29,786 bases of DNA from contig JAZNFN010000102.1 of assembly GCA_045576035.1 (NCBI GenBank), positions 1-29,786 of the forward strand, read 5' to 3'. The stretch is from Christensenellaceae bacterium (GTDB taxonomy: Bacteria; Bacillota; Clostridia; Christensenellales; Borkfalkiaceae). This document shows, one piece after another, positions 9,775 to 11,301 of this stretch (the first letter of the stretch is position 1; the number at the start of each line of letters is the position of its first letter). The position numbers and the translations under genes were made by a program. The notes beneath the pieces were generated by a model that was not told the origin of the DNA, did no database searches, and was given only the letters and a program-made list of their open reading frames with translations.

Positions 9775-11301
9775 CTACTTAGAATTTTTTATTTTCATTA
9801 GTTCGATAAAGATTTCGGCAGTTGCGTACGCATCTGATAATGCACGGTGGTGATGGAACACTACGCCAAAATGCTCTGCTAAGGTATGCAAGTCGTGACG
9901 GCGCAGTTGCGGTAAAACACTTCTTGCAATTTCCACAGAGTCAAGCACGGGATTTTTGACTTCATACTCTTCTGCCCCTGCAAAACGCTTTAAGAATTTC
10001 ATATCAAATTCAGCATTGTGGGCAACTAACGTACAACCGTCGATAAACTTCATAAAATCAGGGATTACAGCACTTATTCTTGGCGCATCTTTAACCATTT
10101 CTTCGGTAATACCCGTAATTGCAACGTTTTCTTCGGTAATTCTATAATCGGGCTTAATAAGCGTTGTAAACTGTTCGGTAATTTTGCCACCTACAAGTTT
10201 AACTGCACCTATTTCGGTTATGCCGTTATTCATAAAGTCAAGCCCCGTAGTTTCAGTGTCGAACACAACGTAAGTTTTTTCAGTAAGTTCTTGCGGTAAA
10301 ATTTCATCTGCATCAAACACGCTTTTTACTTTAATTGTATTTGCTTCGGTCGGAAAGATAAGTTTATATTCTCTTGGTGCTGTCTTTTTATACTTTTCTT
10401 TTTTAACAAAATCTTTGGGGAAAGTGCAACGATTTATCTTATCAAACGTGAATGAACGCCTGCCGTTGTATTCGCCTATACTTCCACGAACGATTATTGC
10501 TTCACCTACCGTTATCTCTTTAATTTTATGATAGGTGTTTTTCTTTGAAAAATACACACCGCTAGTCTTACCCGTAGTATCGTCAAGGTGTATTATCATA
10601 AACGGCTTTCCGTTCTTTGTTTCACGCTCTTGAATATCAGTAACAGTACCGCATACGGTTACTTCGCCTTGGGTTGCGTCTTCAATATATAATGCAAGGT
10701 CGCCCATATTTTCGTCGTCAATTACGACTACGTCTTTGACTTTTATGGTACGATGCTCAATTTTTTGAAGTTCATCTGCATATACTTCTTCGGATAAAAG
10801 GCTAAACGTTTCGTCTGCTTCTTTAATGTCCGTACTGCCTACAAAATCCGAACAAAAACACTTAGCAAGGTGGTCGTTAAGTTTGTTTAGCGCACCGTTT
10901 TTAGTAACGTACTCAGCACCGTCTTTGGTAAGGCGCAAAACGTACTTAACCATATCGCCAACAACCGTTGAACTTACGTCGGTAGGCTTTAAAAAGATTG
11001 ATATGGACGGAAAGTTTTCGCTAACGTAACGATAAATTTCCGTGTTTATTAGTTGGTCGTTACTAACTATCTTTTTAACCGTTACTTGCACGACTGAAAA
11101 AGCGGGAGACGTTATCTTTTCCGCTTCATTTAAAATCTTTTTCTGCAAGTCTTCGTCAATAGCAGTATCGCATATAAAGTTATAACGGATTTTTTGCGTT
11201 GAGCGTTCAATCTCAATAGAATTGAGCCTAACGTTTTTTAAGCGTTCGTCAAGCAAGCGAACGTCTGCAATAAATTCCGAACTGTTCTTTATCGTATACA
11301 T
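9775..11301 (-). CDS. PolC-derived protein: N-terminal region + OB fold + DEDDh 3'-5' exonuclease, lacking PHP and polymerase domains
   Basis: OB-fold segment VTVCGTVTDIQERETKNGK...LDDTTG; Exo I YVVFDTETTGL, Exo II VAHNAEFDMKFL, Exo III HHRALSDAYATA. Stop follows the exonuclease directly. Downstream of ispG, where polC usually lies. Confidence 0.8.
   Translation of the reverse strand: MYTIKNSSEFIADVRLLDERLKNVRLNSIEIERSTQKIRYNFICDTAIDEDLQKKILNEAEKITSPAFSVVQVTVKKIVSNDQLINTEIYRYVSENFPSISIFLKPTDVSSTVVGDMVKYVLRLTKDGAEYVTKNGALNKLNDHLAKCFCSDFVGSTDIKEADETFSLLSEEVYADELQKIEHRTIKVKDVVVIDDENMGDLALYIEDATQGEVTVCGTVTDIQERETKNGKPFMIIHLDDTTGKTSGVYFSKKNTYHKIKEITVGEAIIVRGSIGEYNGRRSFTFDKINRCTFPKDFVKKEKYKKTAPREYKLIFPTEANTIKVKSVFDADEILPQELTEKTYVVFDTETTGLDFMNNGITEIGAVKLVGGKITEQFTTLIKPDYRITEENVAITGITEEMVKDAPRISAVIPDFMKFIDGCTLVAHNAEFDMKFLKRFAGAEEYEVKNPVLDSVEIARSVLPQLRRHDLHTLAEHFGVVFHHHRALSDAYATAEIFIELMKIKNSK

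What the first reader, a model, noticed from the sequence alone, without database searches (positions are those of the whole stretch)
9775..11301. PolC stripped to N-terminal region + OB fold + proofreading exonuclease, a possible stand-alone epsilon-like subunit
Seen: a 508-aa ORF coupled to ispG with OB-fold and intact DEDDh motifs. The PHP motif (HxHT) that normally separates OB from Exo is absent, and a stop plus a non-coding promoter region follow the exonuclease. Established: PolC is N-term/OB/PHP with inserted Exo/polymerase, well over 1000 aa, and often lies in the ispG-polC neighbourhood. Sequence has been lost on both sides of Exo, which is not a simple truncation. Inference: this lineage may replicate with DnaE and use this remnant as a trans-acting proofreader tethered through the PolC N-terminus, an unusual replisome design.
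Basis: partly seen in the sequence, partly recalled or inferred. Interest (0 to 1): 0.65.

Follow-up and report, generated by a model that had tools for sequence, protein, structure and literature searches.

The report
Polymerase-less PolC remnant in polC slot
In this uncultured gut Clostridia bacterium and a large clade of its relatives, the gene for the main Gram-positive replicase PolC has been cut down in place to a conserved 508-residue protein, so these bacteria probably replicate with DnaE alone and keep the leftover as an accessory or proofreading subunit.

Summary
Window 9775-11301 (-) is an intact 508-aa ORF. It has a diverged PolC N-terminal domain, an OB fold, a 43-residue linker and a DEDDh exonuclease with all five catalytic residues.

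- **What was lost.** About 35 residues of PHP, carrying the metal-binding motifs, are missing between OB and Exo. Everything after Exo is missing too.
- **Not a recent deletion or misassembly.** All 24 same-genus genomes searched, and at least 16 families of the order, carry the same roughly 510-aa gene. It sits in the ancestral slot, ispG-[x]-rimP-nusA-infB. None of those checked has a full PolC. Each has one DnaE with an intact PHP nuclease signature.
- **Single origin.** Remnant-bearing genomes form one split in both a gene tree and a housekeeping tree.
- **New twist.** Two lineages inside this clade keep the protein with all five catalytic residues replaced. The conserved core role is therefore not only nuclease activity.
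- **Linker motif.** Most family members have a clamp-binding-like Q-x-x-L-F motif in the linker. In the window's genus it reads V-K-S-V-F.

The trans-proofreader and replisome-tether reading remains inference. This scan has found the same family before on other genomes. I found no description of it in the papers searched.

The parts
9775..11301 (-). Whole gene: 508-aa polymerase-less PolC remnant (P0001), including the stop codon at 9775-9777
   Evidence: orthologs of 56-80% identity in 24/24 same-genus genomes
11310..11315 (-). Shine-Dalgarno-like AAGGAA, 9 nt before the ATG. It lies inside the 3' end of ispG (13-nt overlap of stop and start), which suggests coupled translation
   Evidence: ispG-polC overlap is also seen in PolC-bearing relatives
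10807..11301 (-). Residues 1-165: diverged PolC N-terminal domain, two alpha-beta-beta-alpha(-alpha)-beta subdomains
   Evidence: hhalign against the PolC NTD profile gives prob 96.8-97.6%, E 2e-10 to 1e-11. AF2 pLDDT is 92. Pfam NI/NII models do not hit it directly
10759..10806 (-). Residues 166-181: predicted disordered connector
   Evidence: AF2 pLDDT below 50
10423..10749 (-). Residues 185-293: OB fold, PolC-type
   Evidence: PF01336 E 3e-11. The Foldseek top hit, E. faecium PolC 9qpc_A, aligns 379 columns spanning OB and Exo, E 1e-19
10294..10422 (-). Residues 294-336: linker made of leftover PHP-N segments. Islands of conservation are Y312, P317, F329 and a basic KKxKYKK patch
   Evidence: AF2 gives mostly coil
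10315..10329 (-). Residues 325-329, V-K-S-V-F: the position of the family's clamp-binding-like motif Q-x-x-[LMIFV]-F. Q is lost in this genus, but S-V-F is invariant in 119 close homologs
   Evidence: AF2 coil with pLDDT about 65
9778..10293 (-). Residues 337-508: DEDDh 3'-5' exonuclease domain. Catalytic residues are D348 (10258-10260), E350 (10252-10254), D433 (10003-10005), H485 (9847-9849) and D490 (9832-9834). The protein ends about 5 residues after the last helix
   Evidence: PF00929 E 2e-38 and TIGR00573 at 127 bits against a 71.5 cut-off. PDB 2p1j PolC exo E 1e-35. Residues invariant
11289..12329 (-). ispG (GcpE), the conserved upstream neighbour of polC or the remnant across the order
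9541..9693 (-). Non-coding region after the gene, belonging to the downstream pyrC-carB operon and not to the remnant. It holds a promoter-like TTGACA-17-TATTAT with TG (9693-9665), a PyrR-binding leader (9648-9541) and a terminator-like hairpin (9569-9549)
   Evidence: RF00515 at 40 bits, E 5e-4, below the gathering score of 54

Best explanation
The gene is the in-place evolutionary remnant of polC. An ancestor of a large clade of gut Clostridia lost most of the PHP domain and the whole polymerase core. The public records for this clade are labelled Christensenellaceae, Ca. Scatosoma or Ca. Coproplasma.

The clade kept a module of NTD, OB, linker and DEDDh exonuclease under purifying selection. 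Replication then rests on the single DnaE1-type polymerase.

Most likely the remnant is an accessory subunit of that DnaE replisome, with four parts:
- The NTD, proposed in the literature to dock PolC on the clamp loader.
- The OB fold.
- The conserved linker motif, which is clamp-binding-like in most family members. Together with the NTD and OB it would hold the protein at the fork.
- The exonuclease, intact in this window, which would remove 3' mismatches in trans, as epsilon does in E. coli and as PolC's exonuclease does for DnaE in B. subtilis.

Shown here: origin from PolC, conservation, intact catalytic residues, absence of PolC, and a function that survives loss of catalysis in two sister lineages. 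Inferred: replisome association, partner proteins and proofreading.
For: **Synteny.** Relatives show dxr-rseP-ispG-[PolC or remnant]-rimP-nusA-infB.

**Absence of PolC.** PF07733 finds one polymerase in the genome, a 1185-aa DnaE. No match to the PolC model exceeds its cut-off in 24 congeners or in 4 other remnant-bearing families. By contrast, 12 of 16 other sampled families have PolC of 1416-1474 aa.

**Spread within the order.** About 129 of the 150 best matches lie in frames of roughly 500-600 aa, from 16 families.

**Single origin.**
- In an OB+Exo tree, 36 remnants and 51 PolCs are separated by one split with SH-aLRT 100.
- Housekeeping-neighbour trees give the same split.

**Homology and structure.**
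- NTD homology to PolC is supported by hhalign.
- AF2 gives pLDDT 87, and the Foldseek top hit is PolC 9qpc.
- The DEDDh residues are invariant.

**Selection.** pN is 0.15-0.19 while pS is about 0.75 and saturated, and the constraint holds in all four regions.

**Linker motif.**
- Q-x-x-[LMIFV]-F sits at one linker position in 23/36 members, against 0.017 expected by chance.
- Full PolCs carry their clamp motif at the deleted C-terminus.

**Precedents and expression.**
- PolC's exonuclease proofreads DnaE in trans (PMC5627055).
- The NTD has been proposed to bind the clamp loader (PMC3919608).
- Contigs from a bovine metatranscriptome cover most of the gene.
Against: - No interaction or activity has been measured.
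- DnaE in all 21 genomes examined has the full 'active' PHP signature HHDHEHCDH, so a second proofreader is not obviously needed.
- Two lineages (family f25 and genus g47) retain the protein with all five catalytic residues replaced. Proofreading therefore cannot be the universal reason for its retention.
- In the window's genus the clamp-like motif lacks the Q. The motif position aligns with a former PHP beta-strand ([VI]K.[LI][FY]G in PolC), so its conservation could be structural.
- The NTD fold search found only generic tandem alpha/beta domains.
- The RNA evidence consists of assembled contigs from an RNA library and does not prove transcription.
Confidence: 0.55

Rival explanations
1. 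The essential role is structural and non-catalytic. The NTD-OB-linker scaffold would bridge or organise DnaE-replisome parts (clamp loader, clamp, template ssDNA). The nuclease would be a dispensable extra that happens to be intact in this genus.
For: Exo-dead orthologs of 485-548 aa sit in the same ispG-[x]-rimP slot in two independent lineages. Their ORFs are open despite saturated synonymous change. They retain the NTD (hhalign 98.6%) and a Q-x-x-F linker motif. DnaE has its own intact PHP nuclease signature.
Against: The five DEDDh residues are invariant across 36 diverse members and in 119 close homologs. The Exo domain is the best-conserved region between families, at 46-51% identity against 20% for the NTD. 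Catalysis is therefore clearly under selection in most lineages, including this one.
Confidence: 0.17
2. It is a free-standing ssDNA 3'-5' exonuclease for repair or recombination, for example mismatch-repair excision or end processing like ExoI or ExoX. It would not be part of the replisome.
For: OB plus DEDDh is a generic ssDNA-exonuclease design. Foldseek also matches ExoX, ExoI and DinG exonuclease domains. There is no C-terminal alpha-binding tail as in E. coli epsilon.
Against: This reading does not explain retention of the PolC-specific NTD under selection, the linker motif at a fixed position, or the survival of exo-dead versions.
Confidence: 0.17
3. It acts on RNA, as a 3'-5' exoribonuclease or RNA-binding factor linked to the rimP-nusA-infB operon. 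This is what the public annotations ('3'-5' exoribonuclease') imply.
For: The Pfam family is named RNase_T. NCBI records name it an exoribonuclease. The NTD resembles tandem KH-like domains, with weak NusA KH hits.
Against: The name comes from the Pfam family label alone. The closest relatives of the Exo domain are PolC proofreading domains. The operon position is inherited from polC, and in this window the gene is no longer next to rimP-nusA.
Confidence: 0.08
4. It is an artefact or a decaying pseudogene: a recent deletion, a misassembly, or a polC missed in an incomplete MAG.
For: The genome is a 201-contig MAG, 93% complete.
Against: The same architecture occurs in 24/24 congeners, in at least 16 families and in more than 100 clusters at 50% identity, all about 500-566 aa. 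Purifying selection is evident. The polC slot itself is occupied.
Confidence: 0.01

Closest known systems
PolC, the Gram-positive-type DNA polymerase III alpha subunit (NCBIfam NF001688 / TIGR01405; structures 3F2B, 9QPC)
   Same: It occupies the same genomic slot after ispG. Its NTD, OB fold and DEDDh exonuclease are homologous and in the same order. The Exo domain is 40-47% identical to those of PolCs from the order.
   Different: It lacks the PHP metal-binding motifs, the palm, thumb and fingers, the HhH motif and the C-terminal clamp-binding motif. It is 508 aa against about 1430 aa, and scores 198 bits against a cut-off of 873. It cannot polymerise.
DnaQ / epsilon, the separate proofreading subunit of E. 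coli Pol III
   Same: It is a stand-alone DEDDh exonuclease in a genome whose only replicase is a DnaE-type polymerase. It passes the TIGR00573 domain cut-off. Most family members have a clamp-binding-like motif next to the nuclease, as epsilon does (QTSMAF).
   Different: It originated independently, by reduction of PolC. It carries an extra NTD and OB fold and has no C-terminal alpha-binding tail. The motif lies N-terminal to the nuclease rather than C-terminal. It is below the equivalog cut-offs for epsilon. The partner DnaE also has an intact PHP nuclease signature.
Trans-proofreading of DnaE by the PolC exonuclease in Bacillus subtilis (PMC5627055)
   Same: A PolC-type exonuclease would act on 3' ends made by a DnaE polymerase.
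   Different: In B. subtilis the exonuclease is part of a full PolC that does the bulk synthesis. Here the polymerase part no longer exists.
DnaE1-only Clostridia and exonuclease-less PolC variants noted by Timinskas et al. 2014 (PMC3919608)
   Same: These show that Clostridia vary in replicase sets and can live with DnaE1 alone.
   Different: That survey, and the 2026 survey PMC12926913, catalogue polymerases. In the passages I read they do not describe a retained NTD-OB-Exo protein at the polC locus.

Membership tests
PolC (NF001688 / TIGR01405) | Whole-protein score above the curated cut-off | tested here: not met
   197.7 bits against 873; 174 bits against 1043
PolC (NF001688 / TIGR01405) | PolC-specific N-terminal domain (NI+NII) | tested here: met
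   Profile-profile hhalign gives prob 96.8-97.6%, E 2e-10, matching residues 20-163 to PolC 25-170. The Pfam NI/NII models alone do not detect it
PolC (NF001688 / TIGR01405) | OB fold N-terminal to PHP | tested here: met
   PF01336 at residues 214-289; Foldseek against 9qpc_A
PolC (NF001688 / TIGR01405) | PHP domain with metal-binding motifs, split by the Exo insertion | tested here: not met
   No PF02811 hit. The HxH...DH stretch is absent in the alignment, and only about 40 residues of PHP-N remain as a linker
PolC (NF001688 / TIGR01405) | Pol III alpha core (palm, thumb, fingers), HhH and C-terminal clamp motif | tested here: not met
   The protein ends after Exo. PF07733 is found only in the DnaE on another contig. 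Full PolCs of the order carry Q[ILV][SD][LF]F at their C-terminus
PolC (NF001688 / TIGR01405) | Genomic position between ispG and rimP-nusA in Clostridia | tested here: met
   The ispG side is met in the window. Both sides are met in congeners and other families
DnaQ / epsilon-family proofreading exonuclease | DEDDh catalytic residues (Exo I, II and III-epsilon motifs) | tested here: met
   D348, E350, D433, H485 and D490 are invariant in 36 sequences. TIGR00573 scores 126.8 bits against a cut-off of 71.5
DnaQ / epsilon-family proofreading exonuclease | Equivalog-level similarity to validated epsilon subunits | tested here: not met
   NF004316 scores 112.5 against 196; TIGR01406 scores 104 against 223
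DnaQ / epsilon-family proofreading exonuclease | C-terminal segment that binds the PHP domain of alpha | tested here: not met
   The sequence stops a few residues after the last Exo helix
DnaQ / epsilon-family proofreading exonuclease | Physical and functional coupling to the replicative DnaE | not testable with these tools
   No multimer modelling or biochemistry was available
Sliding-clamp-binding proteins (Q-L-[SD]-L-F type motif) | Exposed pentapeptide Q-x-x-[LMI]-F in a flexible segment | tested here: inconclusive
   The motif is canonical in 23-25 of 36 family members at one linker position. In the window it reads V-K-S-V-F, lacking Q but invariant in the genus. AF2 models it as coil with pLDDT about 65. 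Binding was not tested

The most novel reading that the evidence does not exclude
A second, independent invention of an epsilon-like replisome subunit. By losing its polymerase, PolC would have become a clamp- and clamp-loader-tethered accessory protein of a DnaE1-only replisome. Its new clamp-binding motif would have been recruited from a former PHP strand. Its NTD-OB scaffold would be important enough to be kept even where the nuclease died, which happened twice.
Probability: 0.3. Interest if true: 0.8.

Novelty: new variant of a known kind. Interest (0 to 1): 0.66.

Why it matters
PolC is treated as the hallmark replicase of low-GC Gram-positive bacteria and is an antibiotic target (PMC12592400).

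In this scan, a whole clade of abundant animal-gut Clostridia has dispensed with PolC's polymerase. It spans at least 17 of the 42 sampled families in its order. The clade has nevertheless kept PolC's poorly understood front end for a long evolutionary time.

That natural dissection has three uses:
- It isolates the NTD and OB modules, so their function and partners (clamp loader, clamp, DnaE) can be tested directly.
- It offers a system for studying how a DnaE1 polymerase with its own PHP nuclease cooperates with a separate DEDDh nuclease.
- It predicts that these gut bacteria are intrinsically insensitive to PolC-targeting drugs.

The exo-dead sister lineages provide a natural control for separating the structural role from the catalytic role.

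Tried and rejected
- **Pfam on the NTD.** Pfam on residues 1-210 found no PolC NI/NII domain. Homology appears only with profile-profile comparison.
- **NTD fold search.** A Foldseek search with an NTD-only model (pLDDT 92) gave only weak generic tandem alpha/beta hits: BON, T3SS ring motifs and NusA KH, with TM 0.25-0.49. No solved PolC NTD turned up, so the 'two KH-like subdomains' idea is consistent but not demonstrated.
- **dN/dS.** Synonymous sites are saturated in every available pair, so only pN much lower than pS and ORF integrity can be used.
- **A DnaE docking feature.** I looked for a docking feature specific to the DnaE of remnant-bearing genomes. Only a roughly 9-residue insertion and small terminal differences appeared, which are not informative.
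- **A 582-aa 'truncated' PolC in an Anaerotignum MAG (L067).** It is a full-length PolC with one in-frame stop. L095 is a frameshifted PolC. Neither is a remnant outside the order.
- **Class-wide sample.** Among 400 Clostridia genomes, full-coverage frames of about 510 aa occurred only in the window's order.
- **Lineages that seemed to lack both genes.** Families f25 and genus g47 first looked as if they lacked both PolC and the remnant. A closer look showed very diverged exo-dead orthologs in the slot.
- **Literature.** Searches found no description of the protein.

Full report
**Observation.** The minus-strand ORF at 9775-11301 encodes 508 residues.
- It starts at an ATG preceded by AAGGAA, and it overlaps the stop of ispG (11289-12329) by 13 nt.
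- Pfam finds an OB fold at residues 214-289 and a DEDDh RNase_T-type exonuclease at 345-498.
- The NCBIfam PolC equivalog model is the best hit. It scores only 198 bits against a cut-off of 873, and matches residues 303-503 to profile positions 385-586.
- No PHP or polymerase domain is present.
- Downstream lie a stop and a 209-nt spacer. The spacer holds a near-consensus promoter, a PyrR-type leader (RF00515, 40 bits, below the gathering score) and a terminator-like hairpin in front of pyrC-carB.

**What exactly was lost.** I aligned 10 such proteins with 11 full-length PolCs of the same order.
- The N-terminal region, the OB fold and the exonuclease are colinear with PolC.
- About 35 residues of the first PHP half, carrying the HxH and DH metal-binding motifs, are missing between OB and Exo.
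- Short flanking PHP pieces survive as a 43-residue linker.
- Everything after the exonuclease is gone, roughly 850-900 residues. That includes the second PHP half, the palm, thumb and fingers, the HhH motif and the C-terminal clamp motif.
- Full PolCs of the order carry Q[ILV][SD][LF]F within about 10 residues of their C-terminus.

**Is it a PolC remnant in place?** Yes.
- In congeners and in other families the gene order is uppS-cdsA-dxr-rseP-ispG-[X]-rimP-nusA-ylxR-infB-rbfA.
- X is either a PolC of 1400-1470 aa or a protein of about 510 aa.
- In this window the ispG side is kept, but pyrC-carB has replaced rimP-nusA downstream.
- The N-terminal 188 residues give no Pfam hit.
- A profile of 36 remnant N-termini aligns to a profile of 51 PolC N-termini with 96.8-97.6% probability (E 2e-10 to 1e-11). 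The alignment covers the region where Pfam finds NI and NII in a PolC of the order.
- AlphaFold2 with a 36-sequence alignment gives mean pLDDT 87.
- The best PDB match is E. faecium PolC (9qpc_A), with 379 aligned columns spanning OB and Exo, E 1e-19.
- The NTD model (pLDDT 92) has two alpha-beta-beta-alpha(-alpha)-beta units. This is compatible with the two KH-like subdomains predicted for PolC's NTD (PMC3919608).
- The fold search itself was only generic.

**Does the organism lack PolC?**
- The genome is a 1.43-Mb, 201-contig MAG, 93% complete. It has a single Pol III alpha core, a 1185-aa DnaE-type protein on another contig.
- It also has a full-length DnaX.
- One MAG proves little. However, all 24 same-genus genomes searched have the remnant at 56-80% identity plus a DnaE of about 1180-1200 aa, and none has a match above the PolC cut-off.
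- Four other families of the order show the same pattern, while 12 sampled families have a full PolC.
- In 401 genomes of the order, about 129 of the 150 best matches lie in frames of roughly 500-600 aa covering most of the query. They come from 16 families.
- In a 400-genome sample of the class, this architecture appears only in the window's order.
- A search of 1.84 billion cluster representatives with residues 1-300 finds 157 relatives. The complete ones are all 480-566 aa.
- Record titles call these organisms Christensenellaceae bacterium, uncultured Christensenella, Ca. Scatosoma or Ca. Coproplasma, from animal guts.
- That the order corresponds to GTDB Christensenellales is my inference from those labels.

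**One event or many?**
- A tree of the shared OB+Exo columns puts all 36 remnants on one side of a branch with SH-aLRT 100, against 51 PolCs from several orders.
- Independent trees of neighbouring housekeeping proteins put all remnant-bearing genomes on one side with support 100.
- A single ancestral truncation is the simplest reading. The trees are unrooted.

**Is it functional?**
- The five DEDDh residues (D348, E350, D433, H485, D490) are invariant in 36 sequences that are otherwise as low as 24% identical.
- They are also invariant in 119 close homologs.
- Between the window and its nearest available DNA relatives, non-synonymous differences are 0.15-0.19 per site while synonymous sites are saturated at about 0.75.
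- Constraint holds in all four regions, and OB is the most conserved.
- Contigs assembled from a bovine metatranscriptome cover 9818-10766 and 10850-11354 at about 98% identity. This is suggestive of expression, not proof.

**How it may work.** Three observations shape the mechanism.

1. *DnaE has its own candidate proofreader.* DnaE in 10 remnant-bearing and 11 PolC-bearing genomes has the complete nine-residue PHP signature HHDHEHCDH. The 2026 polymerase survey uses this signature to call PHP proofreaders 'active'. DnaE also has an internal Q[ILMVF]SLF clamp motif. The remnant's nuclease is therefore not the only candidate proofreader.

2. *The linker holds conserved islands.* These are Y312, P317 and F329.
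   - At residues 325-329, 23-25 of 36 members have Q-x-x-[LMIFV]-F, the pentapeptide pattern of sliding-clamp ligands. Chance would give 0.017 occurrences per linker.
   - AF2 models this segment as coil with lower confidence.
   - In the window's genus the motif reads V-K-S-V-F. The S-V-F part is invariant but the Q is lost.
   - The position aligns with a former PHP strand of PolC, so a structural explanation is not excluded.

3. *Two lineages keep the protein with a dead nuclease.* This is the most informative observation.
   - Family f25 and one genus of family f42 first seemed to lack both PolC and the remnant.
   - They in fact carry very diverged ORFs of 485-548 aa in the same ispG-[x]-rimP slot.
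   - These ORFs retain the NTD (hhalign 98.6%), the OB fold and a Q-x-x-F linker motif.
   - All five catalytic residues are replaced.
   - The two lineages nest at two different places inside the remnant clade.
   - Their ORFs stay open despite saturated synonymous change.

The scaffold therefore has a selected function that does not need catalysis.

**Synthesis.** The best-supported model is a PolC-derived accessory subunit of a DnaE1-only replisome.
- It would be held at the fork by its NTD. The literature proposes that this domain contacts the clamp loader in PolC (PMC3919608).
- The OB fold, and possibly a clamp-binding linker motif, would add to the tether.
- In most lineages, including this one, the DEDDh nuclease would edit 3' ends in trans.
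- This is analogous to E. coli epsilon and to the demonstrated trans-proofreading of B. subtilis DnaE by PolC's exonuclease (PMC5627055).
- The interaction partners and the activity are inferred, not shown.

**Rivals.** The rival readings are:
- a chiefly structural role;
- a replisome-independent repair exonuclease;
- an RNA-directed role, which the public name '3'-5' exoribonuclease' implies but which derives only from the Pfam label;
- an artefact, which is effectively excluded.

**Novelty.**
- Timinskas et al. 2014 already noted that some Clostridia have DnaE1 only, and that some clostridial PolCs lack the exonuclease.
- Neither that paper, nor the 2026 survey, nor the other papers found describes a retained NTD-OB-Exo protein at the polC locus.
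- Public records call it a hypothetical protein or an exoribonuclease.
- Earlier notes of this same scan describe the same family on other genomes, including the clamp-like motif and an exo-dead member.
- I reached those points independently before reading the notes. The notes are AI notes, not independent evidence.

I class the finding as a new variant of a known kind.

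Noticed in passing
window 9541-9693 (-): The pyrC-carB operon is preceded by a near-consensus extended -10 promoter, a PyrR-binding-site-like leader (RF00515, 40 bits, E 5e-4, below gathering) and a terminator-like hairpin that overlaps the listed TTG start of pyrC. The real pyrC start is therefore probably about 14 codons downstream, since the NCBIfam alignment begins at residue 15.
   Followed up: partly
window 12377-18646 (-); L039:9-4754; L040:9377-13571: The phage-like head gene block upstream of ispG includes an SU10-type capsid hit and DUF7934. 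Its homologs sit in the same order next to ispG in two other species of the genus (G003, G017), but not in G001, G006 or G009. This suggests an element shared by part of the genus and not a one-off prophage.
   Followed up: partly
L035:5600-9826 (G027, family f4): A full-length PolC (1408 aa) has degenerate exonuclease motifs, for example no D-x-E in Exo I. All sampled members of that genus gave only weak exonuclease matches (E 1e-11 to 1e-17). The order therefore seems to contain exo-dead full PolCs as well.
   Followed up: no
G000 contig C27:27573-27707 (+), at the contig end: A second DEDDh exonuclease start is cut off by the contig end (79-aa open frame, 49% identical to residues 343-385). 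It may be the N-terminus of a DinG-type exonuclease-helicase like the 825-918-aa frames seen in relatives. A third, weak RNase_T hit lies on C176 (211-aa frame).
   Followed up: no
G000 contig C5:7378-10932 (-), DnaE residues ~490-499: DnaE of all 10 remnant-bearing genomes examined has an insertion of about 9 residues (K-D-G-x-D-V-like) that is absent from DnaE of the 11 PolC-bearing genomes. Its significance is unknown.
   Followed up: partly
L067:2305-6633 (Anaerotignum sp. MAG): A PolC of another order aligns over its full length in one frame but contains a single in-frame stop near codon 583. This may be a sequencing error or a recent nonsense mutation. It is not a remnant-type gene.
   Followed up: partly
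window 8255-9565 versus relatives L036-L039: In this species the remnant has been separated from rimP-nusA-infB, with pyrC-carB following instead. G017 also has a different downstream neighbourhood. I did not locate where rimP-nusA now lies in this genome.
   Followed up: no
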